This document shows, one piece after another, positions 1 to 64,000 of a stretch of 64,000 bases of DNA (position 1 is its first letter; each line of letters starts with the position of its first letter). Origin of the DNA: Bilabrum cf. latius (taxonomy: Eukaryota). Location of the stretch: positions 1,240,001 to 1,304,000 of the forward strand of contig OZ237738.1 of the NCBI GenBank assembly GCA_965178125.1, written 5' to 3'. The translations under genes were made by a program, and so were the position numbers. The notes under the pieces are model-generated. The model was not told the origin of the DNA and made no database searches. It saw only the letters and a program-made list of their open reading frames with translations.

Positions 1-837
1 GGTATATTCTCCGGCAGCTGACGATCTCTTGGGCCACATGGTTCCTCGCCCAGGAACAGGCATGTAGACACAGTGGTAGCCACTCCACTGGCCTACTTGC
101 AGGTTCCCAATCGACTGGTTCTTCCACGGATGTCGCCGTACGTACCTCCTTTGGCACAACCCGACTGCATAGTCGATGAGTTGTGTCAACGGACTCAACG
201 CCGGCGCGGTTTCGTCCCTGACCTACGGTCGTCGACTCGACTACCGCTATCATCGACTGTTTCCACACGTCCTACAGATGGTCCCGACAACCAGTCAACT
301 TCAATGATCAAGGCATGGCGATGTAAGACTTGGCTGATAGTGGAGCGGACGCGCAACCGACGGTTCTGGTGCTTTCCAACCGACGTCGGCGCGCGGTCTG
401 CTCAGATTGGCCATGCTTTGCCCATGTCTTGATTGAACTGGAGACGAAGTGTGTCGAGTAAGCATCGTTGCATCATAATGCTAACGCCGAATGGGGTTCG
501 GGGTTGATGTGGCGATGCGTTCGAGACTCGAACACAGGCTCCGGTCTACCAACGCGAGGTTGCAACCGCCAGTGCGACCAGCAGCTTGCGAGGCATTCCC
601 TCGTCTCCTTCCTTAGGGAAGGGGGCGGGGCAGCGCGGCAGTGGCCGTTCCGGCTCATGCCGTTGTTTTGTCCCACCCTCCTCTCCCTGGTTTGGCTGAT
701 AGTGGAGCGGACGCGCAACCGACGGTTCTGGTGCTTTCCAACCGACGTCGGCGCGCGGTCTGCTCAGATTGGCCATGCTTTGCCCATGTCTTGATTGAAC
801 TGGAGACGAAGTGTGTCGAGTAAGCATCGTTGCATCA
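1..837 (+). mobile_element. 3' end of a Ngaro-type (DIRS order) retrotransposon, B1-A2-B2 split direct repeats
   Basis: 146-bp direct repeat at 330-475 and 692-837 ending in CATCA. The spacer starts TAATGCTAACGCCGAATGGGGTTCGG, nearly identical to the A2 start of the Ngaro at 30949. Abrupt GC-to-AT switch at 838. Confidence 0.8.
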
Positions 838-889
838 GATAAGGTTTATTAATAAATATTTATTTGTATAGCTTTAATATATAAATAAA

Positions 890-1843
890 ATGAGTTATAG
901 CGATGAATTTGTAAGATTGAATTTAGTTAGTTCATCTGTCCCCCACAATTAGACGAGATAGGCGGTAGTGAATGAAACCCGTGAAGGCTTAATATTAAAA
1001 CAAAGTGAAAATTATTTAACGGCTGTTGAAGAGATGGATTTAAATAAATTTATGCTACCGGTGTTTAAACCTGAATATTAGGATGACAGCGGTAAAACCT
1101 ATTTAAAATTTACTCTTGAGAATAAAACATCAGGAGCCAGAGCAGGCGATTATATAGTTCTAGGTAAAAAAGCTAAATTTTATTATTCATATTAGGATAT
1201 TGTAAATGAATTTAATGAAGAGTTAAGCCGAATTTGTGATTTGGTAAGCCTTCCAAGTGGTGATAAACCAGTCTTTAAATTTGAAAATAATAAATGGAGT
1301 TTATCAACAACTGAAGATTTTAGAGATAATTATTATTTATTTGTTAATTTTGAAGCTTTTGCTTTATTTGATAAATTTGAATATGAAGGAATAACAACCA
1401 CACCGAGTGATTTATTTGCTAAACTTTCATATAATAATTCCCCTGCTAGTGGTGATTATGTTTTTATGGCTAGATAGACGAATTTAAATTCTTGGTGCCC
1501 TGTTAAATCTATTATCGTAGAAAGTGATATTCCAGTGAATAAAGAATTGGTGACCACAAAATCATCTACTGGTGGCTCTATAGCCGTCAATAAATCCCCT
1601 ATATTAACCAGCTACCCGTATAATCCTAATGACAGCTCACCAATAGAAAATATATTATATGTTTCTAATCCTTACCGCTGGTATTCAATGATGAAGGATA
1701 GAAGCTTTAAGAGCGTGTCAATGGCGTTCTACTGGGTTGATAAACAAAATGAAAAGTATCCCGTAATGAATTTTAACGGGGGTGAAGCTCACATTAAACA
1801 AGTATTTAAAAAACAAACCGATAATTTAAGTTTAGATTTTTAA
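890..1843 (+). CDS. Minor capsid (penton) protein, outer virophage (317 aa with TAG read-through)
   Basis: ATG 890 is in frame with track ORFs 1241 and 1535, separated only by TAG; ends TAA. Directly upstream of MCP. Resembles the inner penton (ETR..LL, IPVF, FYW.DK). Confidence 0.8.
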
Positions 1844-2360
1844 ATAAATTATAGAAGATTATAAAATATGTTTAGATATTAAAAAATTTATATCTATAGT
1901 GTATATATAAAAAAATGGCTCAACAAATGGTTCAGAATTTACCAGTAAGCATTAAGGCTCCTAAAAGCCTTCAAATGATAACCCCTGAAGATGCTAGTTT
2001 AGGAACAGAACTAGGTGTTCAAAAATATACCCGCCGAGAAATTAGACCATCATCTAATCAATCTAATTCTCTTCTTCCCCTTTCTTTCCCCGTTAATCCT
2101 ACTAGTAAAACCGTATCAAGGTTTATTCGTCTTCGTCATCGTATGACAGTTAGGCTACAACTAGAGCAAGCAGTACCAGCTCAAACTGCGGGAGGTGATG
2201 CTATTACCGCTCAATCTTATCTTAAATCTAGGTTTGGAACTAATTCATTACCTACCTTTAAAATGCTTCAAGGTGGTGTTTTAACAATTAATGGATAGCC
2301 TTTTACAGTAAAAGTTTATGAATGGGCTGAACCTACTGAAGTTATGAACAGTGAAGAAAC

Positions 2361-3403
2361 GGGGGGGACAACAGGTGGTGGTAGGTACACCAAGCGTTTA
2401 GGACGAGGGCTACGCTACGCTCGCCCCTCCTTTAAAGGCATATTTAGCAACTCAAGTGTTTCCCCTATAAACCTAAATGATTTCACAGGGGGTTCCCCAA
2501 GAACCCCTATAGAACCCCTCTATGTACCCATTTTCAGATATAAAATTTACTCCTACGAAGTAGGGGTAAATTGAAGAATTCTAATATTTAACCCCCTTAT
2601 AAACTCTAACAGCAAAGACAGAGATGTTTTAGTAAAGTAGGAAAAAATGAAGAAATTAACCAAGTGTCCAAAATATCTCTGTGTTTGCTGTAGGAACGGA
2701 AGGATGAATTCCCAAGAGACCAAGAGACCAACCGAGGATTTCCCCAAGAGAACAAGGTATTTTATCAAGAGACCGAGGTATGTTCCCAAGCGACAAACCG
2801 ATAAACCGACCGATGAACCGACCGATGAACCGACCAAGGATTTCCCAAGGATTTCCCAAGGATTTCCCAAGGATTTCCCAAGGATTTCCCAAGGATTTCC
2901 CAAGGATTTCCCAAGGATTTCCCAAGGATTTCCCAAGCGACTAAATTGTTCTCCGAAGCAACCAAACCGATTACCCAAGAGATGATACATTATAAGGAAA
3001 ACGAAAACGTATTTTAAGTCCCTTTGGAAAAGTCCCCCAAAAATTGAGAGATTTTACAGGTCAATTTTAAGAGACTTAGAAAGAATAAATATATTTTCCA
3101 ATTAAAATTAAATGTTGTAATTCCTATGATGCCACCATAAAAATTAAAAGGAAAACGAAAACGTATTTTAAGTCCCTTTGGAAAAGTCCCCCAAAAATTG
3201 AGAGATTTTACAGGTCAATTATAAGAGACTTAGAAAAAATAAATTAAGTTCCCAAGATGCTCGGGCTTTGCCCTCCGCTCTTTTGATATCTTTTTCAAAG
3301 ATTAAAATTAAATGTTGTAATTCCTATGATGCCACCATAAAAATTAAAAGGAAAATAAAAAACAAATTATAATTGTTTTCCAATTAAAAACGCAAAAATT
3401 GAT
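2361..3403 (+). repeat. Left terminal inverted repeat of inner virophage
   Basis: Reverse complement of ~18676-19606. Contains 9 copies of 11-bp CCAAGGATTTC and ~155-bp internal sub-repeats. Confidence 0.92.
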
Positions 3404-3627
3404 GGAAAATAATATAGGATACAAAGAAATATTAAAAGGGTATAGGGATGATAATTTAAGCCATTCTATATCACTATAGTTAATGAACCCATTTTTAAAG
3501 GAGTTGATGATAGAGCATATTGTCAAGCAAATTAATCCACGTATTTGGAAAAAATTACACGAAAAACTAAAGGAATACAAGAAGCTCGGGCTTTGATATA
3601 AGTAGAAGACTATACTATAAAGTACTT

Positions 3628-3912
3628 ATGAAGCCACATACCTACGATTTTGAAAAGGTTGTCGAGAATTTTCTATTTAAAGCACCCTCAAGACGCAAGA
3701 ATAAGAAGTATGATGTTTTTGACGAAAATGATGAATACATTACATCGTTTGGTGATAGGCGGTATTAGCAATTTTACGATAGAATAGGGTATTACAGCCA
3801 TTTAAATCATTTAGATACGGACCGCCAATTTAGATACTTCAAACGACACGGTATCGAAGTAAAACCAAGAACCCCAAAGTTCTTCTCACATTTTTACCTT
3901 TGGAGTTCATAA
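3628..3912 (+). CDS. Tlr6F/DUF5754-like small protein (94 aa)
   Basis: SRRKNKKYDV...SFGDRRY*QFYD...NHLD...RY..RH...FSHFYLW; one in-frame TAG; ends TAA. Confidence 0.7.
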
Positions 3913-4443
3913 ATGACACGTCAATAAATACACTAATTCATCAGGATTTAATGTATGTTTCTTACAAACCTTATCCACCCACTTTTTATACTAATCAGCG
4001 TTTTTCGCTCTATTCCAAAGACGAACTATACAATGTCTCCCGCAGGTTGCTATATCCATTCCATCCGCCTAAAACTAATATGGGTTATAGTCAATCTTAT
4101 ACGGAGAATGATACATTAAATATATTAACTCAGGGTCTTCATAAAAACGTTTCCGCACGCTTTCACTCATTGTGTGCTATTGCCTATCAGGACGAATTCC
4201 ATAACTGTCAAAGAAGTATATTGTTTTATTACGCTTAAATAAGCACACCCAGTGTCCAGAATTTATTTCTTCTTGGTATAGAATGATACAACAATTACAA
4301 CGACTAAATAATCCATCAATACTATTGTACTATCCTAATTCTGTATATGGAACGATGTTTACCGACGTAGGAAGAAACCCCTTAATATTTGGTGGAGTTT
4401 GGAGGAGAACACGAATATCACTATCGCTAAGAGCATAATCCAT
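3907..4443 (-). CDS. Virophage maturation cysteine protease (adenain-like, 178 aa)
   Basis: GHWVCL, YFFDSYG and YNPY*F*ADGMDIATCGRHC motifs; 5 in-frame TAG; ends TGA. Absent from the ORF track. Confidence 0.92.
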
Positions 4444-4632
4444 ATATATTTATTATAGAAACATATATTGGGGGAGATGAATTCTCTTAACCACTATTTA
4501 AGCGTAGAAGTATTTCTACAAAATCCGTTTTGGAATTTGTGGATAGCATAAAAGACAATCATTCAAAATAAGTTTTCAACAAAAAGACAAAACACTTTAG
4601 AAAAAATAAAAACATATAGTAAATACACTAAA

Positions 4633-5535
4633 ATGGCTCATTTTTCTTGGAAGGAAACTACAAAATCAACACCCATCGCATATGACACTCACGGAAAACG
4701 TATTTTATACACGGCGGAAAACACAGACAACCAATTTGGAGATGATAGTATGTCATTTTAGGATTTTCAAGTATCATCACTTACAGGGAAACGATTTCCG
4801 CAGAGGAAAATGGATTTATTAGCACGACACTTAATCAAACAGGTCGAACCCCTAGACGAAGACATCAAATACTTGTATGAAAAAGCATAGGAAAAGAAAC
4901 ATAAAGAGATTACATTAAAATAGGGTGAATTCCAATCATTACCAAATTTAAACGGAAGAGAGGTAATATATATCACCGCACCATCAGGTGCTGGGAAGTC
5001 TACTTGGGTTTCCAAGTATGCTAAGAATTATCATAGAATGTTTCCAAACAGGAGAATTATTTTATTTTCACGAGTATAGTAGGATAAAGTCTTAGATGAA
5101 GTGAAAGGACTGAAAAGGATTATTTTAAATGAGGAACTGGTGGAGAACCCGATTGATATTCATTAGGAATTAAGGGACGCCTTAGTAATCTTGGATGATA
5201 TTGATACAATCAAAGATAAGAAGTTAAGGGAAGCCCTCAATCATTTACAGGATGAAATATTATAGGTTGGTCGCCACTCAAATACTTCAGTATTAATCAC
5301 AAGTCATTTATCCACCAACTATAAAAGTACCCGTATTATTCTTGCGGAAAGTCATAAGTTCGTTATATTCCCTTAGTGTTCTTCCGCACATTCTCTAAGG
5401 TATTTACTAAAAAATTATATTGGACTTGAGAAACAAGAAATCTCTAAAGTCCTAAAAATGCCTTCTCGGTGGGTTTGTGTTCATAGGAATTACCCGAGGT
5501 ATTTAATTGGAGAAAGGTAGGCTTACCTTCTATAA
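4633..5535 (+). CDS. FtsK-HerA/A32-like genome packaging ATPase (300 aa)
   Basis: Walker A APSGAGKST, Walker B LVILDD, GRH motif then ITSH; only TAG interruptions; ends TAA. Absent from the ORF track. Confidence 0.93.
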
Positions 5536-5564
5536 TTTTGGTCAAACTTGTTATAAAAGTTTCT

Positions 5565-5804
5565 TTAAATAATATTCTATTCTCTTATATACCGACTTGC
5601 TTGAGGTAAACTCATACCAGTCTACTACATCACCATTTTTACAAGTTTATTGCGGCGTTTCATTTTGGCGCTCACTTTCCGCTTAGGCTTACTACGGCCT
5701 TTTCCAACTTTAATATGATGGTTTTTAACTCTATTTAAAGCGTCTTGTTCTTTCTATAGCGCGAGTTGTTTGGTTCTCTATATAATCCACTTATCAATAT
5801 CCAT
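5565..5804 (-). CDS. Small basic protein (79 aa), candidate DNA-binding core protein
   Basis: MDIDKW...VGKGRSKPKRK...RRNKLVKMVM..TGMSLPQASRYIRE; TAG read-through; ends TAA. Confidence 0.55.
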
Positions 5805-5869
5805 TATACTATACACAAACACTTTATTTTTTATTTTTTGGTCAAGCTTTTTATAAAAGCTTATAGTAA

Positions 5870-7051
5870 ATGAAAACTGCTAAAGTGAATGCTCTTATTC
5901 AGCAAGCCCTAGAAAGGGAACTGGACAATGCTAAAATGTTAGATTTACAGGCAAGGGACGACGTAGATTTAGAAACAGAATATAGTGATTTTATAAGGAA
6001 AAGGGCAAAAATTGAACGATTAAAAGAAAGTGGAAGGTATGGAACTCCAGCGTAGAGAAAATAGGCAGACCAAAGCAACGAGGAAATCATATCTAAGTCA
6101 ATATCTGGTATAATGAAAGGTATTATTGAGGGTAAAAATGTAAGTCCAGCAGTGAAAGCATTGAAGGATTTTGTTGGTAATATCAATATGTCTCCACAAA
6201 TGAAGCAACAACTCGCCCGTCAATACGTTAACATAGAGAGGTTTCAAAGGAAAGGATACGAAGGACTGCAGAGAGTTCCAGCTGAGGATAGAAAACAACT
6301 CTTAGAATTAGGGAAAGTTATATAGGAGGCATCCGGACAACGAATACCGTAGGGAATGTTGGGAATTGATTAGTAGCCAACATCTTTACAAACACCTGCT
6401 CGAACAACAAGAAGAAACACGTTTTCCGCTCCAACACAAGTACAGCTTCCAAAAAGGTCTTCGGGTGCGTATAAATAGTTATTGGAAAGAGCCAGAGAAA
6501 GAATACAACAAGACAGACCCTTAACTGAAAAACAACGAATAGCGTGGGATTTAGAATAGGGAAAGAATTTCTCACAAAGAACATCACAGGGGCAGACAAA
6601 TATGTTTTAGCATTTTCAAGAGGGTTCAAGTAGTAATGCGTCAAAAACATCAAAAGACTTAGATGCCATATTAGCCGCAGCGAGCAATGAAAGACCACTA
6701 CCGCAAGGAAGCACTCCGGGGGCGTGGGACCCAGAAACTGGTGAGTACTATGATATGCCGAGTAGGATGGAAATTGAGCAGGGAATTGGAAAACGTGCTA
6801 CTAGACCTGTGTAGCGATTTACGGGGTTTAGTCCGCCCTATGGAATGTAGTAGCCTGATTTAGAAGACCCACCATCACGCGCAATGACTGTAGAAGAAAG
6901 TGGAAAACCAAAAAAGGGGAAAGGATTAACAGGTGGAAAAAGAATTATCTATGATACAGCAATGAATGTAGCCAAGAAAGTAAAAGGAAGCACTAAAAAT
7001 ATTCATCATTAGGTTGCTATGGAACTATTACATCTTTTAGGAAAAGATTGA
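5870..7051 (+). CDS. Hypothetical protein (~393 aa) with C-terminal GKGLTGG motif
   Basis: Track ORFs 5870 and 6113 are in the same frame, joined via TAG; ends TGA. Confidence 0.6.
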
Positions 7052-7116
7052 CCAAAACCTCTTATATACATCTTTTGGCAACCTGATAAAAATTATATCT
7101 GTGGATATACTATAAA

Positions 7117-7608
7117 ATGTCAGTCTCAAATCTTCTATCTAAGAACAGTCTAGACCTTATGTCTCAAACTATTACGTGTAATGTTGTGAGTAGCGACGCA
7201 ATTAAAGTGTCCGCAATTACTAACTCTACGGGAGCAGTCATAGGCAATCCAAGTATTGAATTCAAAGACGGAGAGCCTTATATGGAGTGGGGTGAAACTG
7301 TTCTACGGTTTGGAAAAAACGGAGCGTCTGCTGGTTGTCAGTTCAGTATGAGCGAAGAAGGAGAAAGATGCGATATTTCACTAGTTGGTTCATTCAAGAC
7401 TTCTCAAGAGGGTGTTGTTGGGCTGAGTGAGGTTGCTGGAGCTACATTGGCTGACGCTTCTACCCCTATTAATACGTCAGCAGAGCGAAAGTTCAAGGGC
7501 GCTTTAGTGTATAATGGAAGCGACAACGATGTCTATGTGGCGATTGGCAGTTCTTCTACATCTAGTTGGAAATCCTTAGTGTCAGGTTCACTTATTACAC
7601 CATCTTAA
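7117..7608 (+). CDS. Hypothetical beta-rich protein, putative fibre/spike; homologous to 32940-33461
   Basis: GETVLRFGKNGASAG...EEGERCDISLVG matches GEALRFGANTASAG...EDGHECDLTVKG; lies just upstream of the penton. Confidence 0.6.
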   Translation: MSVSNLLSKNSLDLMSQTITCNVVSSDAIKVSAITNSTGAVIGNPSIEFKDGEPYMEWGETVLRFGKNGASAGCQFSMSEEGERCDISLVGSFKTSQEGVVGLSEVAGATLADASTPINTSAERKFKGALVYNGSDNDVYVAIGSSSTSSWKSLVSGSLITPS

Positions 7609-7664
7609 TTATACTTTAGAAAAGTAATCAAACCCACCCCATAATTATAAACGTCTATAGTAAA

Positions 7665-8774
7665 ATGAGTTCTCCAGACCGATTTTACATTACCGCAAAC
7701 ATACGAAATAACGAAGATACTTTCCAACCAGCGACCTATAGCGAAACCCGCAAGTAGCCATTATTAGATAAGGATGTTGGTGATTATACGATGTCAGTAT
7801 TCCGGTTTTCCATAAGCACCAATTCAATACCTTTATGGGTTCCACACATAGAAACCGATAAAGTGAAAAATCCATCTTCAAATCCTAATCAAACGGTGTA
7901 TAGAATAAGCATTACAGATGAAGACGGAGTAAGTTTATGGACCTCAAGCATTCAGTGGAGACCCTAGTTAACAGGGGAAAACCAACCATCTTTTTCCAAT
8001 CCTATGTAGTTTGTTCCTTATTATTATATGTATTCCGTGTAGCATTTTGTTGATTTATTCAACGAAACCATATAGAATGCTTTATCAGCGGATATTACAT
8101 CAGTTCCGGTTTTACTCTTTAAAGATGGAAAGTTCAGTTTAGTAGCAAACCCCGATTACGACGAGGAAAACTCAGGACAGAAATTTAAATTAGTGTTGAA
8201 TGAAGCCCTTAACGAACTGATGACGGGTTTTCCTATGGAACGAATGGATATCCAAGATGACGACTTATACGCCAGTATTCTATTCAAAACCCTAGGAACC
8301 AATGTTTTATTCGATGATGGCTCTTCTGTTGGAAAATATGAACCTTAGGCATACTTCGAGGGAAACCCAACGGGAGACTACAGATTAATGATGACCTAGG
8401 AACGAGGGAGTTTAGTGTAGTTTTAGATTTTTCGCGGAATAGTTTTCACATCTTCAAGTCTTCCAGTGAGGAGTGAGGCAATATCCTAGAAATCCGCCTA
8501 TGGACAATCCACTAATACAGTTCAAAATTCAGGTTCAGGGACCGAGAGTTTATTAGTGGATATGGATTGTGTATTAGATGATACTGAAACAGTTAATTAG
8601 CAGGTTCTTCAATACCAGCCCCATATTCTCCACGAAATTGATTTTTTAGATACACATTCAGTAGATAGGATTTAGTTTAATCTATATTGGAAAGACAATT
8701 ATTCAAATCTAAGACCTCTTTATTTACGCCACGGAAGTGTGAGTGTGAAGTTTTTATTTAAGAAACGGAAGTGA
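7665..8774 (+). CDS. Minor capsid (penton) protein, inner virophage (369 aa)
   Basis: ATG 7665 to TGA 8774 with TAG read-through. YSETRK*PLL, SIPVF, IVFTSSSLPV, LYWKD, VKFLFKK motifs; precedes MCP. Confidence 0.88.
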
Positions 8775-8879
8775 AATTAGTTTTGTATTACTTTTATGAA
8801 GAAACGAGTTTGCGTTCTTTTCTAAAGAACTGAGTGATAGAATTTTATTCGTTGTATATAATATACAAGGAAAACAAAA

Positions 8880-55021: not shown

Positions 55022-55142
55022 AGTATCAGCAGTTGCAGCGGATAAAGATTGCCCCCTCACTTGTTCGGGATGTTCCGCGTGCGCGGCGCCACATGGTTAC
55101 AACCGCTTAGCAAGCCGTTCGGGCAGAGCCATTCGGTCGACC

Positions 55143-56305: not shown

Positions 56306-58198
56306 GTGCTCCCACTCTGGGGAGCACCGGTGATCCCGGTACCATCCGGGGCATCAACAACAGCACCATTCACGGGGTCAAGGCCTGAACGTGTAGCCGG
56401 GGGGCCGATGGGAGCGCACTCACTGGGCCGGGGCATCATGGACGGTGGCGGGTTTGGGTGGAAACTGCCTGCCCCAAGCGGGGGGGCCGGTGCAGGGGCG
56501 ACTGCTACCTCAGGCCATCCGCCGAGCGAGCTGGGCCTCTTTGATTTTGGGGGCGGATTCAGCCATGGTGGAGTGACTGCGGCCGATGCTGGGGCGGGTG
56601 GCAAACCAGCGGGAGGTCCAACGGCAAGCCGCGGTGCCAGCGCGGTGTTTGGGGCGCAGGCGTCGATGGGCACCATCTCGGGCGCAACGCTGGGAAAAAG
56701 GGGGAGAGCGGAAGAGGTGGGGGAAGCACAAGCTCCCTGGGAGGCCATTGTGGCGGATTCGGAACGTCGCACCAAGGCGGCAAGGCGCGAGCAAGAGGTC
56801 GAGGGAGCATCCGCGGGAGCAGGAGAGGCGACCGCGAGTGACGCGATCGACAAGCGAATTCAACAGGCGGTTGCGGCCATGGCATCGGGTGAGCCCAATG
56901 GTACGTTGTAGTTGCTCCGTGCCCTTGCGCTTGAGTTAAATGCCCGGCCCGAGCACTCCACCCAGGCGATTAAGTCGTCAGCCGGCGCCTGCAAGAAGTC
57001 ACCATACCAGGGCCAGGTCGGAGCAGACGATGGAGACGGCGCCAAGGAAGTGCATAATTCCATTCCCACGGCGAAGGGAGTTGACTCTTTGTTCTACGAC
57101 ACCGTACGGTCTTAGGAGGTGCTTCAATTTAGGGACAGTGCACGGTATTTGGCCGAACTCGGGGAGGAAGGCGAGAGAGCTAAGGACTTGGCCTCAGTGG
57201 CGCTGACGAGTGCGGACAAGGCAAAGATTTCGTTACTTCGGATTGAACGCCCCGCGCAGATAATGTTCGCTTCTATGGCGAGTGCGGCTGGTTTTCGCCG
57301 GGAGTCAGGATCTGGCCGCAGCTTTCATGTGGCACCGGTGCTGGAGGAGGCGGGTGATTTGCTCATGCCGGACGGGATCAGGCAATTTGCGAGTAAGTGC
57401 GGGTAGCACGTGTTGTCGGGAGTGGCAGAACTGGAACAAGGCAACATTTTTCGATTACCCACGATATTGACCAGATCGGTGTGTGGGGCGCTCGAGTGGG
57501 TCGTGGCAGGGAGCACGTCGTTGCTGAAGGTGGTTATCACACTTGCGACACTGCTGCACCAGGATAAGCATGCGGAAGCCAGGGCAGTAATGAGCAAGCT
57601 TCACGAGGCGTTGGAGATTGCAGTGCGAAGAATGTTCTTGGGCTTAGGGATGGTCCTTCATGCGGCAGCAGTCCGCACGGCAGGTGGAGGCAACGGGGAC
57701 ACAGCCAATACGGGTCAGCATTTCGTGTTAGCAACTGCTCTGCGCATGATTTTGATACATAGGGTGGCACCAGTGGGGAGAATGGATACTCCTGCGGTGC
57801 TTCGACTGTGGTAGTTGCGGAGCGAGAACGAGACCCCGCTGCGGATGACGCAGACTCAGGTGGGGCCCACGTGGGAATTACTGGGACTGAATCCGGCAGG
57901 CAACCATAGCGCTATGGCGTGGGAGGATGTGACAGCCGCGATAGACAAGTCAGCATTGGAGCGAGCGAAGCGGGTGGCAAAGGAGCATGGGGCCGCAGCT
58001 GGAGGAGCGGGGGCAGCGGCAAAACGGTAGTCAGCGAAGGCCAGCAGCAGCAGCAGCAGCAGCAGTAGCGCGAGTGCGGGTGGACAAGAGTCGCAGCAGG
58101 AGTCAGAGCGCCAAAAAGGGACGACATCGGGGCCCAAAACGTAGGCGGAGCCCCGTACCTCCCCAAGACGAAGTGGCCGACTAGCGGGGAATGGGTGA
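56306..58198 (+). CDS. Ngaro ORF1 (gag-like)
   Basis: Five abutting same-frame track ORFs separated by TAG; ends TGA. Confidence 0.65.
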
Positions 58199-58199
58199 C

Positions 58200-60590
58200 G
58201 CGGCCCGAGCCAGGGGAAGGGCTGCAGTAGTGTAGGCATGTGCACTATCTTCGGAAGCAGCGCAAAAAATCCTGGCTCAGCAGAAGACTCCGACCCTACA
58301 GCGTGGTGAGCCGAGCCTGCGGACACTGGATGGGCGGTGCATTGTGACGGACATCATGGAACACGCGGACGAATTGTTGGACTAGGTTGCATCTGCAGGC
58401 CCCTCGAGACGATGGCACGAGGTGCAGATGGAAGCAGCCGGCTATTCTGTGGACAATGACGGTGATGCGGGAGCGGGGATGACTGGGGATGCGCCGTCAG
58501 CATTGGGTGCGGACGGGATGTGGTAGGCTTGGGCACGATGCCTGGCAAAGCGGGACAAGATTGACTTGCGGTCATTCCCACCGGGCTAGGCACCATCATC
58601 TGCTTTGGACGTCTGGTATGGAACGTTGTCACACTGGGAGCGTAGGGGCGAACTGCAGCAGGGGGAGCGATGGGCAGCACGCTAGCCGTGTACGCTGTCA
58701 CCTCGTGGAGCATGGCAGGCACATTTGGCTCGTTGTCGACGCTGCGGGGCGCGGGGCGCAGTGGAGCCCGATTGTGTAGCGGGCCGGGGGTTTGTTGGAC
58801 TGGCACGACATGGGCTTCGGGCGGAGGCAGTCTTGAAGGTGTTGGGGGCGCAGCCGGTACGGGCTGACCCGAAGGACTTGCCGGCGGACGAGGAGGATGT
58901 AGTCCCGTTCGTGGAAGCAGCAGCGAGTGCAGGCAAGATTCGACCGGTGGAGGGCGCCGCGGTCTAGGTGACGCCTATGTTCGTTGCCAAGAGGACCGCA
59001 ATCGAGGTACAGCAGCGGGAGGGTCAGACACCACGCTTGGTGCAGCGGGAGGACACGACTGGCAAGCAGCGCCTAGTCACGGATATGAAGCGCTCGGGCG
59101 CGAACGAGGCATTTCTTGACTTGCGTTTCCGGTATGGTGATTTTGCTCGGCATTTAGCAGAGCGCGTGGGACGTGACAGGCACGAATGGGGGGCAGCCTT
59201 CGATTTCAAGGCGGCATATCATAGTATAGCGCTGGCACCGGGGCTGCAGCGATGGATGGCAGTTCGCGGAGTGGGTGGCAGCATGTTTTAGTTTGTGGTC
59301 TTGTCGTTTGGTTGCAGAATGGGCTGTTTTGTCGCATCAGTAGTGTTGGCAGAGTGTTTAGCGGGGGTGCGACTGCGCACCGCACATTGGGCTTTTGGGT
59401 ACATTGATGATGGCTTTCTGTCAGCACGTACGGAGGCCCGCACTATGTAGTTGTTGTGGTGTGCCGTGCTTGTAGCGCGGGGGATTGGCATGAGGATATA
59501 GCCTAGCAAACTTACCTTTCCAACATAGGTGATTGAGTTCCTTGGGCTAAAGATTACCCTGGGAGCCCACTTGAAGGTGACACTGCGCTCGGATCGATGG
59601 CCACGGATCCACGCAGTGCTGAGGACCGTTGAGCGAATGCGAGCTTTCAACATGCTAGCAACGAGTGCGCTGGCGGTCAAGGCTGTGGAGAAACTGGCAG
59701 GACAGTTGGGCGCGGCTGCGGCAGTAATCCCCCACGCTTCGCAGCACGTGTTTGCGATATACTAGGCGGCTGCAAAGGCTCGCAAAGGTGGTAGGCACAT
59801 CTGGACGGCAGAGTTCAACGAGGAATTTGAGTGGTGGCTGACATGTAGGGACCGCGGTATCTTGACAGCGGCAGCAGCTGCACCGATATACCCGTTGCCG
59901 GAGGGGAGAGCATCCGTGTTTTGTGCTGACGCGTCAGCCCATGGACTGGGTGCAATGTGGCGCCGAGGCAATGGTGATTCTGGCTTGATGCAAATGGGTT
60001 TCCACGAGGACATGCAGTTACTATCCAGTACGGCACGCGAACTAGCATCACTACGAGCTTTTTTGTCAGGACCAGGCTAGTTGGCGAGGAGCCAGACTTG
60101 CCCAGAGGCGCTCTTCGTGCTGTCAGACAATCAAGCCCTGCCAAATTTGCTGCGGAAGGGCGGCTCGATGAAGGCTGGGTAGCGAGATGAGCTGCGAGAG
60201 ATTGGAAGGCTGGCTGAGAACTTGGGATACGTGATCTTCCCCGTGTGGTAGAGGCGAAGTACACCGATCATGGTGGCATGCGATAGATTGAGCAGGGTGG
60301 AGGACGGTGCTGGTCAACTGGTGTAGACGGCGGGGCAGCGCGTGGGCAAAACGGGGTTTGTCTCGGCGGCAAGGGCGACATCTGACTCAACTTTTCATGC
60401 ACCATTTCATCTTCGCAGGACCATTTGGGGAGCTGATCCCAGTGACTGGACGAGCAGGCTCAAGTGCTGCGGCACAACGGCGAGCAGCGGTGGCGGCGAC
60501 TAGGACCCTGATGCTGTAGGAGAGTCAGCAGCTCGGCAAGGGAGCTCTGGACGCGCGCAGGCGGAATCTGACCATGCAGGCGGAACTTGA
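58200..60590 (+). CDS. Ngaro RT-RNase H (boundaries approximate)
   Basis: FDFKAAY, SFG, YIDD, FLG, ADAS, SDN and CDRLSR motifs; TAG read-through. Confidence 0.85.
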
Positions 60591-61635
60591 GGTCGGGGAT
60601 CCGGTGGAGGCCATGTGGGCTTTGCTGACGGAGTAGTGCGCCGCCGGGTTGAAGTATGCCACAGTGTTGCGATTGTTCCAAGCGCAAACGGCGTGGTTCA
60701 GGTCAGCGGAGTTCCCGCGTACCCCACTCGCAGACGTGGAGTACAGGCAGGTCAAACTGGCCCTGCTCGGCTACAAGCGTAGATGTGCCGGGGCGACGGA
60801 TCCGGACGCGGTACGTGCCCTACGTGTCCTGGTGGACAACCCTGTAACGTTGCGAGCACTAGTGATGATGGCCTGGTAGCTGCAGGCAGAGTGGGATTCG
60901 ATGTGGCAAGGCCCAGCTGCGCTGGCCCGTGCGGACTACAACTCAACACCAGCGGTTCTCGATACATTTATGTGCTGCTATGTGGGGACATTCTGTGGCT
61001 TGGCCCGGTGGCCAGATCTGGTGCATCTGGCAATAGGGGAGATAGAGTGGACTGCAGCGTCTGATGACAACGAGGTTGTTCCCGTGGCACTGATTGGGTG
61101 GCAGCGGTACAAGTCGCGGGTGCTCGGCGGCAACCCCGAGCAGCGCCCGCCAGCGGTCATTCCATGCTTGCCGGATGGATTCGAGGAGTTGTGCCCGTAT
61201 CGGTGGCTGAAGTGGTGGGTATCAGTTCGGTAGCCAACACAAGGGCAGCGCGGGGAAGTATTCGCCTCTCGAACACGGGCTGCGCACAGTGCCACGCTGC
61301 AGTGGATAACAGCGCAAGGGATTCCTGTGCACCGCAAGGGGGAGGGTGTGTACGCCTTCAAGAGTGCGGGAGTGTCAGCATTGCGCCAGACGGACCCAAC
61401 CAAGGACGAGAAGTACGTGCACGGCCAGGCTGGGTGGTCTCTGCCCAACATGCCAGCGGTGTATGATCGTTACTCATTGATGGAAGCGGCAAGGGTTACG
61501 AGGAGTGGGATTCTTCGGGCTATGGTGGGAGCTGGCTCCATCCCAGAACTTCTGAAGACTTGGGAATCCCAACGCAGGGAGCTTCACCGGAGCCCAGTGA
61601 GCAGTGGTGGGGGTGAACGGGATTCAGGGCTCTAA
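60307..61635 (+). CDS. Ngaro tyrosine recombinase (start uncertain)
   Basis: GLARWPDL, LCPYRWL, YAFKSAG, AGW...VYDR; four same-frame track ORFs; ends TAA. Confidence 0.75.
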
Positions 61636-63842
61636 CTGGGCCAGTGGGTGTTCCTTGCGGCGTTCGATGGGCGAACAGCCAAAAGGGGGGCCCAGTGTAG
61701 ATCCCGTGGCCAGTGGCAGGTAGTCCCCATAGCGGCTTGAAAGGTCCGTGCCGCCTGCCCAGTGCCCGGGGAAGCACCAGCCAAAACCAAAGCGCCACGG
61801 AAGGAGGAGATTACGAGGAGCAGGTACTAGGTACGAGAGTGGAAGCTGAGGGCAGGACAAAGCGGCCAGCCGGGCCTAGGCGGCACGGAGACGGCCGTGC
61901 TAGCGACAGACGAGTGGGCGACGGTGGGTAGCGGCGCACGAGTGGCGCGTGGCGGGAGAGGGAGAGTGCTGGGGGAGCGAAGCATTGAGCGGTTGATCGA
62001 CAGATCCACATTACCAACCATCATGATTCAATGGCACCCCTACTGACGAATACAGAGCATCCATGTACAGTGATGTTTGGGCCGATAGTGGTATACTGAT
62101 CGGATCAATTCCGAGTACGAGCTGAGCGAGACCAGCGCTCTCACTTAGGGGAATTCAGAAGAAGATAAAGGAAATAATTTTTACTTTTATAGAATTGTTT
62201 CTTGTCTTGTTGGCCCCATTTCCTTCGGATATGGATGGGGCGGCATCGCGGCGGAGGCCGGGAGGTGAGGGGGGACCAGTAGTTGGCGGACAACAGAGGG
62301 GCCTACAGCTGAAGGGAGGGGTGCCAGGCGGATAAGGTTTACTCAGCGAGACAGGGCGTCTTAGGGGCGGGTAAGTGTGTGTGTGTCACTGCTGCCCGGT
62401 AGTGTGTGTAATATTCTCTTGGGAGGGGGGCGGAGGCAGACCGCTCCTCCTCCCTCCGCACTCAGTACCAGCATGAACCAGCCCTCTTTTCTGTTCATGT
62501 GGACCCCCTGACAACGGGGGGACCACGTGGCACCCACGCAGGATGGCGGCGCAGATTCGGAGGGTACCAACACTCATACCTAGCTACCAACATTTAAGCG
62601 TTGCGGAGGGCAACGGAACGGGGCCAGGGAAGCTGCGTGCGTCTAGCCATCTAGAACACGTGGACGAACTGGTGGTGGCCTTTGCCACCATCCCATTTCA
62701 CCAACCAGATGAGGCTCCGTGGTCGCATCTGGTGCCGATGGCCACTGTTAGCAGGACCGTTGGTGGGTGGCTTGGGGGGCCAGGGACTTGGCTGAGTCAA
62801 GTAGGCGTGGGAGTAGGGGTGGGTGCGGTCAGTATGAGGTCCGTGCCTCATGTTGATCGCTGTAAATCCGGCTATAGGTCGGAAGCAACCCACCCTCCCG
62901 GTTGCAACAGTGGGGACGGGTGTGAGGTGGCCACGCGTGAGGTGGTCATGAGACTGGGAGCAGAGGTGTGGTCCGTGCCGTAAAATCCCCCATGTGGAGC
63001 ACCTCTGTTTTTCTGGAAGCACAAAGAACCGCGTTGCGGGCCCAGGAAACTTCTGTCCTTTGGATGGCTCCGTGGCCGAAGGGGGACAGAGTGACCTGCA
63101 CAGCCGAGAGGAGAGCCTGAATCTCGGATCGACCCTGGGACAGTCGCACCGGCGACACCCACCGAGAGAGCGAGGCGAGATCCTGCACAGCGTACGCTGC
63201 AGTGGAGGACCACTGTGGTGCTGCAAGAGGCACGGCAACGTGCGGACAGCAGCCGGACCCCGTATCCTCACAGAGGGTAAGGCAATGGGAGCCTGAATAG
63301 GAGCGGACCGGGTGACGACTGTGCTGGGGCTGCGGTGAGCATACAGGACCGTGTCGAGCGTGGTGGGCTGGGCGGGATGTGCGAGCGGTGATGCCCTAAC
63401 TCGATCGAGTTCAAGATTTTTTTCTTCTTTTTGCGTGGTGGCGTCCCCTAGGTCGGGGCGGCGTGGGTGTTCCTTGCGGCGTTCGATGGGCGAACAGCCA
63501 AAAGGGGGGCCCAGTGTAGATCCCGTGGCCAGTGGCAGGTAGTCCCCATAGCGGCTTGAAAGGTCCGTGCCGCCTGCCCAGTGCCCGGGGAAGCACCAGC
63601 CAAAACCAAAGCGCCACGGAAGGAGGAGATTACGAGGAGCAGGTACTAGGTACGAGAGTGGAAGCTGAGGGCAGGACAAAGCGGCCAGCCGGGCCTAGGC
63701 GGCACGGAGACGGCCGTGCTAGCGACAGACGAGTGGGCGACGGTGGGTAGCGGCGCACGAGTGGCGCGTGGCGGGAGAGGGAGAGTGCTGGGGGAGCGAA
63801 GCATTGAGCGGTTGATCGACAGATCCACATTACCAACCATCA

Positions 63843-64000
63843 CTCACTTGTTCGGGATGTTCCGCGTGCGCGGCGCCACATGGTTACAACCGCTTAGCAA
63901 GCCGTTCGGGCAGAGCCATTCGGTCGACCATGGCAGCCTCTGGAGCCGGAGAAACTGGTAGCACCGATGCCGCAGCAAAATCCAAGGCAATAAAGATGGC
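63843..64000 (+). repeat. Exact duplicate of host 55056-55213 (IFT27 upstream region and exon 1), running off the window
   Basis: 158-bp identity directly abutting the Ngaro right end. Confidence 0.92.

What the first reader, a model, noticed from the sequence alone, without database searches (positions are those of the whole stretch)
1..64000. Variant nuclear genetic code: UAG is sense (Gln) while UAA and UGA remain stops, in host, transposons and viruses alike
Seen: conserved genes are interrupted in frame only by TAG, and true ends are TAA or TGA. This holds for host PHPT1 (TAG 52857), a ~5-kb host ORF with at least 10 TAG, the pogo transposase, two Ngaros and both virophages. Gln is inferred from TAG at the oxyanion-hole Gln of the adenain-like protease (4069-4071, F*ADGMDIATCGRHC), NY*YGKIY in GIY-YIG (typically NYQNGKIY) and FGDRRY*QF. 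Established: decoupling UAG from UAA is rare in nuclear codes (e.g. Iotanema UAG=Gln, a rhizarian with UAG=Leu). I know of no such report for a Cafeteria-like virophage host.
Basis: partly seen in the sequence, partly recalled or inferred. Interest (0 to 1): 0.95.

Follow-up and report, generated by a model that had tools for sequence, protein, structure and literature searches.

The report
UAG read as glutamine, viruses included
This stretch of a protist chromosome, its integrated virophages and its transposons all use the stop codon TAG as a glutamine codon while TAA and TGA still end genes, a rare kind of genetic code that related virophages from environmental samples share.

Summary
With TAG as sense, stop-to-stop ORFs of 250 aa or more rise from 17 to 47. 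The AT-rich viral part goes from 0.21 to 0.94 coding coverage, against 0.03 in simulations. Twenty-five ORFs hold 207 in-frame TAG and all end in TAA or TGA.

Contigs from four studies' runs show the same TAGs with no differing letters over the 5-kb host ORF. Two runs have spliced contigs.

I aligned window ORFs against standard-code ORFs of 80 IMG/VR virophages and decoded each codon. This got 58 of 61 sense codons right and gave TAG = Gln: 23.2 bits against 3.5 for the next residue, over 50 columns. Gln is invariant (46 of 46) opposite the protease TAG at 4069-4071. Homologue-defined C-termini fall at TAA or TGA.

Six metagenome virophage contigs with about 60% MCP identity are recoded the same way. 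In them TAG interchanges with CAA/CAG.

Evidence from the retrotransposons alone is weak. Host lineage, a tRNA-Gln(CUA) and eRF1 could not be examined. This code type (NCBI table 15) is known from a few lineages, so this is a new member of a known kind.

The parts
2360..19607 (.). Integrated virophage 1 (about 17.2 kb), bounded by terminal inverted repeats of about 1 kb (2360-3403 and 18676-19607). All its genes carry in-frame TAG.
   Evidence: Inverted repeats I1-I5, with the outer 512 nt 100% complementary. Pfam hits for MCP, penton, pPolB, DUF5906 helicase and rve+chromo integrase. Syntenic with metagenome loci L081 and L084.
3910..4449 (-). Virophage cysteine-protease-like gene with 5 in-frame TAG. 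TAG at 4069-4071 is residue 127.
   Evidence: 46 homologues among the 80 IMG/VR loci. Residue 127 column is Gln in 46 of 46. The C-terminus matches homologues at 180 of 180 and is followed by TGA. No Pfam hit.
4630..5535 (+). Packaging ATPase with 9 in-frame TAG, ending in TAA.
   Evidence: AAA_22 hit. 19 and 80 homologues. Homologue ends fall at about residue 331 against an ORF end at 327. The TAG column in ...DEIL-X-VGRH is E 55 / Q 13 of 80.
7515..8774 (+). Penton (minor capsid) protein with 14 in-frame TAG, ending in TGA.
   Evidence: PF21507 at 1.1e-8. 32 homologues. Gln is the commonest residue at TAG columns 151 (13/25), 176 (14/25) and 295 (10/18). The end matches homologues, 423 against 419.
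8880..10646 (+). Major capsid protein with 14 in-frame TAG, ending in TGA.
   Evidence: PF21915 and PF22031. P0001 is 88% identical. Codon-level TAG<->CAA/CAG interchange with L081-L086.
13634..18400 (-). Replication and integration module: pPolB (13634-15493, 4 TAG), DUF5906/D5-like helicase (15533-17251, 10 TAG) and rve+chromodomain integrase (17252-18400, 6 TAG).
   Evidence: Pfam. 55-61% identical to ORFs of L084.
1..2359 (.). Left part of a second virophage-like element that virophage 1 interrupts. Includes a penton-like ORF at 878-1843 with 5 TAG.
   Evidence: PF21507 at 1.2e-5, below the Pfam cut-off. 4 homologues. Position relative to the inverted repeats.
19608..24700 (.). Right part of the interrupted element. 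Contains ORFs with in-frame TAG, a GC-rich insert of about 730 bp at 20.28-21.0 kb, and a GIY-YIG-like ORF at 23914-24669 with 8 TAG.
   Evidence: 15 homologues of the 23914-24669 ORF, with Gln 9 of 14 at residue 13. No Pfam hit.
24700..41000 (.). Third AT-rich virus-like element. Its pPolB is split into 25089-~25880 and ~31290-31984. Also holds DUF5872 at 32152-32886 (3 TAG) and Prim-Pol/PriCT2 at 33863-36652(-) (21 TAG). Boundaries are approximate.
   Evidence: Pfam and GC profile. Capsid genes were not identified here.
25880..31280 (+). GC-rich DIRS/Ngaro-like retrotransposon inserted into the pPolB of the third element. Carries RT/RNase H and a weak tyrosine-recombinase signal, with in-frame TAGs.
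   Evidence: RVT_3 at 2.9e-5. Phage_integrase at 2.3e-4, below the Pfam cut-off. 73 RT homologues. 130-nt direct repeats at 30819-30948 and 31151-31280. GC steps.
41621..43999 (-). pogo-type DDE transposase ORF with 10 in-frame TAG, ending in TAA.
   Evidence: PF03184 DDE_1 at 3.1e-7. Stop codon.
44593..49626 (-). Host ORF of 1677 codons with 9 in-frame TAG, ending in TGA. No known family.
   Evidence: Contigs of X5 (44428-49699, 5272 nt) and X6 cover it with 0 differing letters.
50022..52799 (-). Host ORF of 925 codons with 8 in-frame TAG, ending in TGA. Low complexity, no known family.
52728..53126 (+). Host phosphohistidine phosphatase (PHPT1/janus family). TAG at 52857-52859 is codon 44. 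Ends in TGA right after the conserved C-terminal Tyr.
   Evidence: Matches human PHPT1 2hw4 at E 1.8e-20 over residues 18-132, spanning the TAG. 3 homologues with PF05005. X5 contig 52705-53177 is identical.
54138..55150 (-). Host EMC7-like gene (no TAG) with one 98-nt intron at 54901-54998. Its 5' limit is approximate.
   Evidence: Spliced joint 54900>54999 with CT..AC ends. Translation. Atlas nearest clusters are EMC7 with PF09430, score 0.95.
55702..63762 (+). Second GC-rich RT-bearing retrotransposon. ORFs at 55991-58198, 57933-60590 (RT, 18 TAG) and 60292-61635, with split direct repeats. Limits are approximate.
   Evidence: RVT_1 at 8e-9. 454 RT homologues at E<=1e-3. Repeats D1, D3 and D4.

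Best explanation
The organism that carries this chromosome segment translates UAG as glutamine and uses only UAA and UGA to terminate. This is the code type listed as NCBI table 15. Everything translated in that cell has adapted to it: host genes, a pogo transposon, RT-bearing retrotransposons and at least three integrated virophage-like elements. In the virophage genes TAG is the most used glutamine codon.

Shown here:
- TAG is in frame within conserved domains.
- TAG columns decode as Gln.
- Homologue-defined gene ends fall at TAA or TGA.
- The TAGs are present unchanged in independent DNA contigs and in spliced, apparently RNA, contigs.

Inferred from established knowledge and the passages read in Panek 2017 (PMC5304391):
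- Decoding needs a tRNA-Gln with anticodon CUA, which pairs with UAG but not UAA.
- It probably also needs an eRF1 with weakened recognition of UAG.
- No tRNA lies in the window or in the related virophage contigs, so the virophages depend on the cell, or on a helper giant virus, for that tRNA.
For: Frames:
- ORF counts, 17 against 47.
- Coverage 0.21 against 0.94, with simulated mean 0.03.
- 207 in-frame TAG in 25 ORFs, all of which end in TAA (8) or TGA (17).
- Pfam domains span TAGs in MCP, penton, Prim-Pol, DUF5872 and RT.
- PHPT1 aligns to human PHPT1 on both sides of its TAG.

Identity of the residue:
- 106 window ORFs were searched against 3971 standard-code ORFs of 80 IMG/VR virophage loci, and 13 had hits.
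- From 1864 columns, 58 of 61 sense codons decoded correctly. TAG over 50 columns gave Q 23.2 bits, N 3.5, D -2.6, E -3.2.
- Mean Gln fraction at TAG columns is 0.160. It is 0.163 for CAA, 0.105 for CAG, 0.096 for GAA and 0.015 for TAT.
- Invariant Gln columns: 46 of 46 (protease residue 127) and 14 of 14 (ORF 11345-12601, residue 277).
- Pooled with the retrotransposon columns (64 in all): Q 24.3, E -2.6, Y -32.3, L -50.8.
- Ngaro-2 RT column 243 is Gln in 86 of 132. A 77%-identical fragment, P0037, has Gln at both TAG sites it covers.

Relatives:
- Six metagenome contigs, L081-L086, are recoded the same way. Coverage is 0.0-0.25 standard against 0.74-1.05 TAG-sense.
- Across syntenic genes, 51 of 207 codons opposite a TAG are CAA/CAG, the largest class. 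TAG is also a top partner of both CAA and CAG.
- Sequences 97% identical differ TAG/CAG at MCP column 252.
- Independent decode: L081 Q 19.7 against E -2.1; L084 Q 7.6 against K 4.0.

Stops:
- Homologue ends coincide with the ORF end at TAA (ATPase, DUF5872, penton-like 878-1843) and at TGA (penton, protease).
- PHPT1 ends at TGA after the conserved final Tyr.
- TAG is spread evenly along genes, with quartile counts 19/24/23/27.

Reality of the TAGs:
- 0 differing letters in contigs from four studies over 44.0-49.7 kb.
- X5 and X6 contigs join across GT..AG gaps of 85-87 nt.
Against: - The retrotransposon-only decode is inconclusive. Over 14 TAG columns it gives R 5.9, H 1.7, Q 1.2 bits, although 60 of 61 sense codons decode correctly there.
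- Some TAG columns are clearly not Gln in homologues: MCP column 281 is Y/F in 32 of 34, DUF5872 columns are P, I/V and P, and RT columns 461 and 484 are hydrophobic.
- The PHPT1 TAG column is K/S/E in three homologues and S in human, so no bona fide host gene in the window shows the residue directly.
- P0001 and P0002 (Gln at 13 of 13 and 7 of 14 TAG sites) may themselves be TAG=Q gene calls, so I do not count them as independent.
- No tRNA-Gln(CUA), no eRF1 and no peptide evidence. No genome is held, and the window has no tRNA.
- Only about six C-termini are defined by homologues, so occasional termination at UAG cannot be excluded.
- The tool labels X5 and X6 as RNA only as a guess, and X5 as 'probably DNA'.
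Confidence: 0.9

Rival explanations
1. [quoted passage not shown] It is read as Gln inside genes but still terminates some genes near their 3' ends, as in ciliates with ambiguous codes.
For: Only about six gene ends are defined by homologues, and ORFs were delimited by TAA/TGA by construction. A minority of TAG-terminated genes would therefore go unseen. Four MCP homologues end near the position of TAG 474.
Against: TAG sits 4 codons before the ATPase end and is read through into conserved residues. TAG is not depleted or enriched towards 3' ends, with quartile counts 19/24/23/27. The other 42 of 46 MCP homologues continue past residue 474. Coding coverage reaches that of standard-code virophages with TAG fully sense.
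Confidence: 0.06
2. UAG is sense but encodes another residue (Glu, Lys, Tyr or Leu), or is filled unspecifically by near-cognate tRNAs.
For: Many TAG columns are E/D/K-rich in homologues. ATPase residue 238 is E 55 / Q 13 and residue 177 is E 45 of 80. Some columns are Y/F. The retrotransposon-only decode does not pick Gln.
Against: Pooled scores are Q 24.3 against E -2.6, K -16.0, Y -32.3 and L -50.8 bits. Two invariant-Gln columns (46/46, 14/14) carry TAG. Codon partners of TAG are mostly CAA/CAG (51 of 207), and TAG's partner spectrum matches that of CAA and CAG. CAA columns show the same mix of E/K/N neighbours.
Confidence: 0.03
3. The host uses the standard code and only the virophages are recoded, read through by a suppressor tRNA that a helper giant virus supplies. 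The TAGs in the host-like parts would then be pseudogene damage.
For: TAG is much commoner in the virophage genes (0.43 of TAG+CAA+CAG) than in host or transposon ORFs (0.18). Residue identity is proven mainly on virophage genes.
Against: PHPT1 keeps homology on both sides of its TAG and ends exactly at the conserved C-terminus. The 1677-codon host ORF has 9 TAG, no TAA or TGA, and is covered end to end by a 5272-nt contig of a run that also holds spliced contigs. 66 TAG against 0 TAA/TGA in 7185 host or transposon codons is not random decay. In the GC-rich part, TAG-sense coverage is 2.26 against a simulated maximum of 1.57, whereas TGA-sense is near chance.
Confidence: 0.01
4. Artefact: assembly or sequencing error, or C-to-T damage turning CAG into TAG, or RNA editing restoring CAG.
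For: None found.
Against: Contigs from four studies agree letter for letter across the TAG-bearing host ORF. Contigs that show splicing keep TAG. Damage would also create in-frame TAA from CAA and TGA from CGA, and none is seen in 13288 codons. Six unrelated metagenome contigs show the same pattern.
Confidence: 0.005

Closest known systems
Iotanema spirale (Fornicata) nuclear code, UAG = Gln with UAA as main stop (Panek et al. 2017, PMC5304391; passages read)
   Same: UAG alone is reassigned to Gln, and UAA keeps its stop function. The expected mechanism is a tRNA-Gln(CUA) plus an altered eRF1. That paper reports T32G in the GTS motif of the Iotanema eRF1.
   Different: That case rests on transcriptomes of an anaerobic flagellate, and no viruses or transposons were described. 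Here the evidence is genomic and includes virophages and transposons. The host lineage here is undetermined, so identity with Iotanema is not excluded by any test I could run.
Ciliates with UAG = Gln only: Hartmannula sinica, Trochilia petrani and Protocruzia tuzeti (McGowan et al. 2024, PMC11687900; passages read)
   Same: Same code (translation table 15) and the same tests for dual meaning: C-terminal alignments and an even spread of UAG along genes.
   Different: This window is a contig of at least 64 kb with introns of 85-98 nt, retrotransposons and integrated viruses at host-like coverage. From general knowledge that is unlike phyllopharyngean gene-sized macronuclear chromosomes. This is an inference, not a test.
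Endogenous viral elements of Streblomastix strix that use the host's non-standard code (Bellas et al. 2023, PMC10120064; passages read)
   Same: Integrated polinton-like or virophage-like viruses share the host's reassigned stop codons, which that paper takes as a sign of long association.
   Different: There both TAA and TAG mean Gln (table 6 type), and the elements are a metamonad MCP group. Here only TAG is reassigned, the elements are mavirus-type virophages (pPolB plus rve integrase), and free-looking relatives occur in metagenomes.
Endogenous mavirus-like virophages invaded by Ngaro retrotransposons in Cafeteria burkhardae (Hackl et al. 2021, PMC8547959; search listing and abstract only. 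The Ngaro detail comes from passages of bioRxiv 10.64898/2026.07.28.741278)
   Same: AT-rich virophages with TIRs sit in a GC-rich flagellate genome, and GC-rich YR-type retrotransposons are inserted into virophage genes.
   Different: I saw no non-standard code reported for Cafeteria or Halocafeteria. The passage search of the Halocafeteria preprint found 0 mentions of 'genetic code' or 'stop codon'.
TAG-to-Gln recoded bacteriophages, 'genetic code 15' (Peters et al. 2022, PMC9523058; abstract only)
   Same: Viral genomes in which TAG is a Gln codon.
   Different: In those phages the code differs from the host's. Here virus and host agree.

Membership tests
Nuclear code with UAG = Gln and UAA/UGA = stop (NCBI table 15 type) | UAG occurs in frame inside conserved protein-coding genes | tested here: met
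   207 in-frame TAG in 25 ORFs. TAGs lie inside Pfam domains and inside the PHPT1 alignment.
Nuclear code with UAG = Gln and UAA/UGA = stop (NCBI table 15 type) | UAG positions correspond to Gln in homologues that use the standard code | tested here: met
   Q 23.2 bits against the next residue at 3.5 over 50 columns, with 58 of 61 control codons right. Replicated in L081 and L084. Inconclusive for the retrotransposons alone.
Nuclear code with UAG = Gln and UAA/UGA = stop (NCBI table 15 type) | UAA still terminates | tested here: met
   The ATPase, DUF5872 and penton-like ORFs end at TAA where homologues end. Reading TAA as sense does not lengthen the longest ORF.
Nuclear code with UAG = Gln and UAA/UGA = stop (NCBI table 15 type) | UGA still terminates | tested here: met
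   Penton and protease end at TGA where homologues end. PHPT1 ends at TGA after the conserved last residue. The TGA-sense gain in the GC-rich part is near the simulated range.
Nuclear code with UAG = Gln and UAA/UGA = stop (NCBI table 15 type) | UAG is not used as a terminator | tested here: inconclusive
   0 of about 6 homologue-defined ends are at TAG, and TAG is evenly spread along genes. There are too few genes to exclude rare use.
Nuclear code with UAG = Gln and UAA/UGA = stop (NCBI table 15 type) | A tRNA-Gln with anticodon CUA is encoded | not testable with these tools
   No genome is held. There are no tRNA genes in the window or in L081-L086.
Nuclear code with UAG = Gln and UAA/UGA = stop (NCBI table 15 type) | eRF1 is altered in stop-codon recognition motifs | not testable with these tools
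   eRF1 is not in the window, and no genome is held.
UAR = Gln code (NCBI table 6 type) | UAA is also a sense codon | tested here: not met
   0 in-frame TAA in 13288 codons of ORFs that hold 207 TAG. Three genes end at TAA at the homologue-defined end.
Mavirus-type virophage (integrated) | Sputnik-type MCP and penton, packaging ATPase, cysteine protease, pPolB, rve integrase and terminal inverted repeats | tested here: met
   Pfam hits, the protease by 46 virophage homologues, and TIRs. Dependence on a giant virus was not tested.
DIRS/Ngaro tyrosine-recombinase retrotransposons | RT and RNase H plus a tyrosine recombinase in place of a DDE integrase, with split direct repeats | tested here: inconclusive
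   Element 1 has RVT_3 and RT homologues, with Phage_integrase at 2.3e-4, below the Pfam cut-off. Element 2 has RVT_1 and split repeats, but its third ORF has no recombinase hit and no likeness to element 1's.

The most novel reading that the evidence does not exclude
The host is a previously unrecognised lineage with the UAG = Gln code, neither ciliate nor fornicate. It anchors a whole host / giant virus / virophage system that runs on that code. A clade of virophages, both integrated here and present in at least five metagenome data sets, has made TAG its commonest Gln codon and is thereby locked to hosts and helper giant viruses that read UAG as Gln. The code would then act both as a transfer barrier and as a host-prediction marker for metagenomic virophages. 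It also predicts a still-unseen giant virus that is translated in this code.
Probability: 0.4. Interest if true: 0.85.

Novelty: new member of a known kind. Interest (0 to 1): 0.7.

Why it matters
[quoted passage not shown] The passages I read in McGowan 2024 list one fornicate and three ciliate cases for UAG = Gln. Each new case bears on how eRF1 and tRNA changes can uncouple the two codons.

Here the code comes with a rare bonus. Host genes, DNA and RNA transposons and several virophages sit side by side and all obey it, and related free-looking virophages in metagenomes obey it too. That matters in three ways:

- It shows long co-evolution of these parasites with a recoded host.
- It implies a helper giant virus that works in this code. 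The 2026 giant-virus catalogue states that all confirmed isolates come from standard-code hosts.
- It has a practical side. Public gene calls for such sequences are cut at every TAG. The nearest relatives of the RT in the protein library are fragments of 42-78 aa, three of which (P0031, P0041, P0037) stop directly at the window's TAG sites, so annotation must use table 15.

Tried and rejected
- Whole genome: none is held, so there was no genome-wide codon inference and no tRNA, eRF1 or 18S search.
- The look-up of sequencing runs: no RNA holder is listed. Organisms and studies are coded, and I did not try to resolve them.
- tRNA scan of the window and of L081-L086: none found.
- Rfam scan of the window: no match.
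- The search for related loci in viral contigs: the 8-row MCP alignment had no conserved stretch, and P0002 found no relative.
- PDB by sequence: the integrase gave no hit. The protease gave only spurious summed WD40-repeat matches. The 'oxyanion-hole' role of the invariant Gln therefore rests on recall of clan CE proteases, not on a test.
- Host lineage: Atlas neighbours of the EMC7-like exon are generic eukaryotic EMC7 clusters. PHPT1 found only 3 unnamed homologues. Lineage is left open.
- Window paralogues as an internal test: the two retrotransposons and the virus elements are too divergent to be useful.
- Retrotransposon-only decode of TAG: inconclusive.
- P0001 and P0002 as independent evidence for Gln: rejected, because their closest DNA relatives are themselves TAG-recoded.
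- Literature: 7 searches found no report of this code in a virophage host or in virophages. Paez-Espino 2019 notes only an ochre-suppressor-like tRNA in one virophage clade. Supplementary tables, such as the host lists in Bellas 2023 or the S tables of McGowan 2024, were closed and might name this organism.

Full report
WHAT THE WINDOW IS

The first 41 kb are AT-rich (30-41% GC), interrupted by GC-rich inserts. The last 23 kb are GC-rich (51-62%).

Reading TAG as an unknown residue X, Pfam recognises these genes in the AT-rich part:
- Sputnik-type major capsid protein (8862-10646)
- two penton proteins (7515-8774 and 878-1843)
- an AAA packaging ATPase (4552-5535)
- protein-primed polymerase B (13634-15493, and a second one split at about 25.9 and 31.3 kb)
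- a DUF5906/D5-type helicase
- an rve integrase with chromodomain
- a Prim-Pol/PriCT2 protein (33863-36652)
- DUF5872

Inverted repeats of about 1 kb at 2360-3403 and 18676-19607, with the outer 512 nt identical, delimit one 17.2-kb virophage. It sits inside another virophage-like element. A third AT-rich element follows at about 24.7-41 kb.

GC-rich mobile elements:
- an RT/RNase H element with a weak tyrosine-recombinase signal, at about 25.9-31.3 kb inside a pPolB gene
- a pogo-type DDE transposase at 41621-43999
- a second RT-bearing element with split direct repeats, at about 55.7-63.8 kb

Host genes:
- a phosphohistidine phosphatase (52728-53126; human PHPT1 at E 1.8e-20)
- an EMC7-like gene with one intron
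- a small-GTPase-like gene with three short introns (by eye, not tested)
- a UGGT-like fragment (by eye, not tested)
- two long ORFs without a known family (44593-49626 and 50022-52799)

Yes. Stop-to-stop ORFs of 250 aa or more number 17 under the standard code (longest 478 aa) and 47 with TAG as sense (longest 1831 aa). The figures are 26 with TAA as sense and 39 with TGA as sense.

In window 1-24700 the share of bases in ORFs of 150 aa or more is 0.21 under the standard code and 0.94 with TAG as sense. It is 0.59 with TAA as sense and 0.46 with TGA as sense. The 80 IMG/VR virophage loci have a median of 0.89 under the standard code. In 100 first-order Markov simulations of that region, TAG-sense coverage averaged 0.03 with a maximum of 0.17.

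In the GC-rich part the test is weaker, because random long ORFs abound. Even so, TAG-sense coverage (2.26) exceeds every simulation (maximum 1.57). TGA-sense (2.84) barely exceeds its simulated maximum of 2.77.

Codon counts:
- 15 virophage-type ORFs, 6103 codons: 141 TAG, 133 CAA, 52 CAG. They end 6 times in TAA and 9 times in TGA.
- 10 host or transposon ORFs, 7185 codons: 66 TAG, 101 CAA, 195 CAG. They end 2 times in TAA and 8 times in TGA.

The other two frames of the same genes are full of TAA and TGA.

The ~5-kb host ORF holds 9 TAG, not at least 10.

ARE THE TAGs GENUINE?

Eight runs from four studies, with coded names, hold the host stretch. I laid four of them on 41600-56000.
- X1 has one contig over 44046-51196.
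- X5 has one over 44428-49699.
- X6 has three over 44544-49698.
- X7 has one over 42828-48753.
All have 0 differing letters.

X5 also has a 473-nt contig (52705-53177) over PHPT1 with 0 differing letters.

X5 and X6, but not X1 or X7, hold contigs that join across gaps:
- 55247>55334, 55362>55448 and 55528>55616, with GT..AG ends and 85-87 nt skipped
- for X5 only, 54900>54999, with CT..AC ends, which is a minus-strand intron

I take these as spliced RNA contigs. The tool itself marks these runs 'RNA?' as a guess. If they are RNA, UAG is present unedited in the transcripts. C-to-T damage would also create in-frame TAA and TGA, and none is seen.

WHICH RESIDUE?

I avoided circularity by translating TAG as X. 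As references I used only ORFs of 80 IMG/VR virophage loci (found with the ATPase alignment) that are open under the standard code: 3971 ORFs.

Of 106 window ORFs (100 aa or more, starting before 41 kb), 13 had homologues at E <= 1e-5. I scored every codon by the log-odds of each amino acid given the homologue column. The scheme used Henikoff weights and BLOSUM62 pseudocounts on columns with 5 or more residues, 1864 columns in all.
- 58 of 61 sense codons decoded correctly. The errors were CGA, CGG and TTG.
- TAG over 50 columns gave Q 23.2 bits, N 3.5, D -2.6 and E -3.2.
- For comparison, CAA gave Q 37.6 over 40 columns and CAG gave Q 8.8 over 16.

The mean Gln fraction at TAG columns is 0.160. 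It is 0.163 at CAA, 0.105 at CAG, 0.096 at GAA, 0.015 at TAT and 0.008 at TTA columns. Gln is the commonest residue in 10 of 50 TAG columns, against 9 of 40 for CAA.

The NY-X-YGKIY site has Gln in 9 of 14. FGDRRY-X-QF has a single homologue, with Glu.

RESULTS THAT CUT THE OTHER WAY

- The exhaustive search with the second retrotransposon's RT found 454 proteins at E <= 1e-3, and the best 150 were used.
- I dropped 6 of 148 rows that were 50% or more identical. The two retrotransposons together then gave 855 columns, with 60 of 61 sense codons right. TAG over 14 columns came out R 5.9, H 1.7, Q 1.2, which is inconclusive.
- Within that set, column 243 is Gln in 86 of 132 and column 164 has Gln as commonest (37 of 135). 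Columns 461 and 484 are hydrophobic.
- Among the 14 closest hits, 29 residues stand opposite the window's TAGs. By my count these are Gln 9, Cys 5, Arg 5, His 3 and others 7. P0037, 77% identical, has Gln at both sites it covers (461 and 484).
- Several of these closest hits are short fragments that end beside the window's TAG sites: P0031 at 245-321 between TAG 243 and 322, P0041 ending at 55 before TAG 56, and P0037 ending at 508 before TAG 509. P0038's alignment runs to 427, where it has Gly opposite the TAG. Most are what standard-code gene calling would produce.
- Pooling all 64 columns gives Q 24.3, E -2.6, N -4.0, K -16.0, Y -32.3 and L -50.8.
- The PHPT1 TAG lies in a variable column: K/S/E in three homologues and S in human.

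INDEPENDENT RELATIVES

A metagenome scan with a 4-row MCP alignment returned six contigs, L081-L086, from five data sets. Their MCP is about 60% identical to the window's.

All six are recoded the same way. ORF coverage is 0.0-0.25 under the standard code against 0.74-1.05 with TAG as sense. Their MCP genes hold 2-8 in-frame TAG and no TAA or TGA.

In the MCP alignment, 20 columns hold a TAG in some sequence. TAG faces CAG or CAA at columns 9, 110, 121, 302, 346, 373, 374, 386 and 420. Sequences 97% identical differ TAG/CAG at column 252. Among the three lineages, 18 of 40 codons opposite a TAG are Gln codons.

Over all syntenic genes of the window's first 24.7 kb against L081 and L084:
- 24 positions share TAG.
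- 207 positions pair TAG with another codon: Gln codons 51, Lys 28, Glu 18, Ser 17, Thr 16, Arg 15.
- TAG is in turn among the top partners of CAA (30 of 271) and CAG (21 of 133).

Decoding L081 and L084 against the 80 standard-code loci gives TAG = Q in both: 19.7 against -2.1 bits over 32 columns, and 7.6 against 4.0 over 25 columns. 54 of 61 controls were right in each.

P0001 (Gln at 13 of 13 aligned TAG sites) and P0002 (7 of 14) probably belong to this recoded clade. I do not count them as independent.

DO UAA AND UGA STILL STOP?

Where homologues reach their own C-terminus, the window ORF ends at the same place:
- ATPase: 331 against 327, TAA
- DUF5872: 240 against 244, TAA
- penton-like 878-1843: 319.5 against 321, TAA
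- penton: 423 against 419, TGA
- protease: 180 against 180, TGA

PHPT1 ends at TGA after the conserved terminal Tyr.

A TAG four codons before the ATPase end is followed by conserved residues. TAG is evenly spread along genes, with quartile counts 19/24/23/27. I therefore see no sign of dual use. Six ends cannot, however, exclude rare termination at UAG.

MECHANISM

Shown: the code table in use. Inferred: how it is read.

Passages of Panek 2017 argue that reading UAG while ignoring UAA requires a tRNA with anticodon CUA. That tRNA would probably derive from tRNA-Gln(CUG). It usually comes with a change in eRF1; Iotanema has T32G in its GTS motif. Neither could be examined, because no genome is held. 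No tRNA lies in the window or in the six related virophage contigs, so the virophages rely on the cell or on a helper virus.

TAG makes up 0.43 of TAG+CAA+CAG in the virophage genes and 0.18 in host or transposon ORFs. This fits an AT-rich parasite that has long evolved under this code.

COMPARISON AND NOVELTY

The code type is known.
- McGowan 2024 (passages) lists UAG = Gln with UAA retained as a stop in Iotanema spirale, Protocruzia tuzeti, Hartmannula sinica and Trochilia petrani.
- Bellas 2023 (passages) reports viral insertions in Streblomastix strix that use the host's TAA/TAG = Gln code.
- Paez-Espino 2019 (passages) mentions only an ochre-type tRNA in one virophage clade.
- The 2026 giant-virus catalogue (passages) states that all confirmed giant-virus isolates come from standard-code hosts.
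- The Halocafeteria preprint (passages) describes a 47% GC host without Ngaro elements and does not mention the code, so it is not this organism.

Seven literature searches found no report of a virophage host or a virophage clade with UAG = Gln. Supplements were closed and might hold one.

The host lineage is undetermined. A long contig with introns of 85-98 nt, retrotransposons and integrated viruses argues, from general knowledge, against a phyllopharyngean macronuclear chromosome. I could not test ciliate, fornicate or other affinities.

VERDICT

This is a genuine variant nuclear code of a known kind, very well supported for the virophages and well supported for the host. It adds a recoded virophage clade that also occurs in the environment. 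I rate it a new member of a known kind, with interest 0.7.

Noticed in passing
L081-L086 (metagenome contigs), e.g. L081:1-15916 and L084:1-13791: A clade of environmental virophage contigs from five metagenome data sets is about 55-61% identical in protein to the integrated virophage and syntenic with it. It is also TAG-recoded: coding coverage is 0.0-0.25 under the standard code against 0.74-1.05 with TAG as sense.
   Followed up: yes
window 2360-19607 within 1-24700: Nested insertion. A TIR-bounded 17.2-kb virophage sits inside another virophage-like element, whose ORF starting at 1825 runs into the left TIR. ORFs resume after the right TIR at 19608.
   Followed up: partly
window 25880-31280: A GC-rich RT/RNase H retrotransposon has inserted into the pPolB gene of the third AT-rich element. 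With TAG as sense, the pPolB N-terminal part and the retrotransposon read as one open frame of 1831 codons (25089-30584).
   Followed up: partly
window 20280-21000: A GC-rich insert of about 730 bp (56-75% GC) lies inside an AT-rich viral ORF. It has no similarity to anything else in the window.
   Followed up: partly
window 53055-53840 (-): A UGGT-like glycosyltransferase fragment (recognised by eye, not tested) abuts and slightly overlaps PHPT1 (52728-53126, opposite strand), so it cannot be a whole gene. Contigs of X5 (2379 nt) and X6 (3672 nt) match 53148-53566 with 12 differing letters, as if from a paralogous full copy elsewhere.
   Followed up: no
window 55056-55213 = 63843-64000; 55702-55852 = 62028-62178; 61644-61943 = 63463-63762: Identical direct repeats flank and lie within the second retrotransposon. 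One of them (55056-55213) overlaps the 5' region of host genes. This suggests a duplication of host sequence around the element, or a composite repeat structure.
   Followed up: no
proteins P0031, P0034, P0037, P0038, P0041 (hits): The closest public relatives of the RT are fragments of 42-78 aa, most of which end beside the window's TAG sites. Existing gene calls for this organism or its relatives were evidently made with the standard code and are truncated.
   Followed up: partly
window 54900-54999 and 55247-55616: Four short spliceosomal introns of 85-98 nt, with GT..AG ends on their own strand. They belong to two divergently oriented host genes, whose contigs are merged in run X5.
   Followed up: partly
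window 24206-24424: A 45-nt tandem repeat with four overlapping copies lies inside the GIY-YIG-like ORF and encodes a repeated Arg/Glu/Lys-rich stretch.
   Followed up: no
window 23077-23174 and 36871-36968; 38742-38804 and 40735-40797; 36806-36865 and 40916-40975: Short direct repeats (75-92% identical) are shared between the AT-rich elements, most of them in stretches that lie between the long ORFs. They may be shared promoter or regulatory motifs.
   Followed up: no
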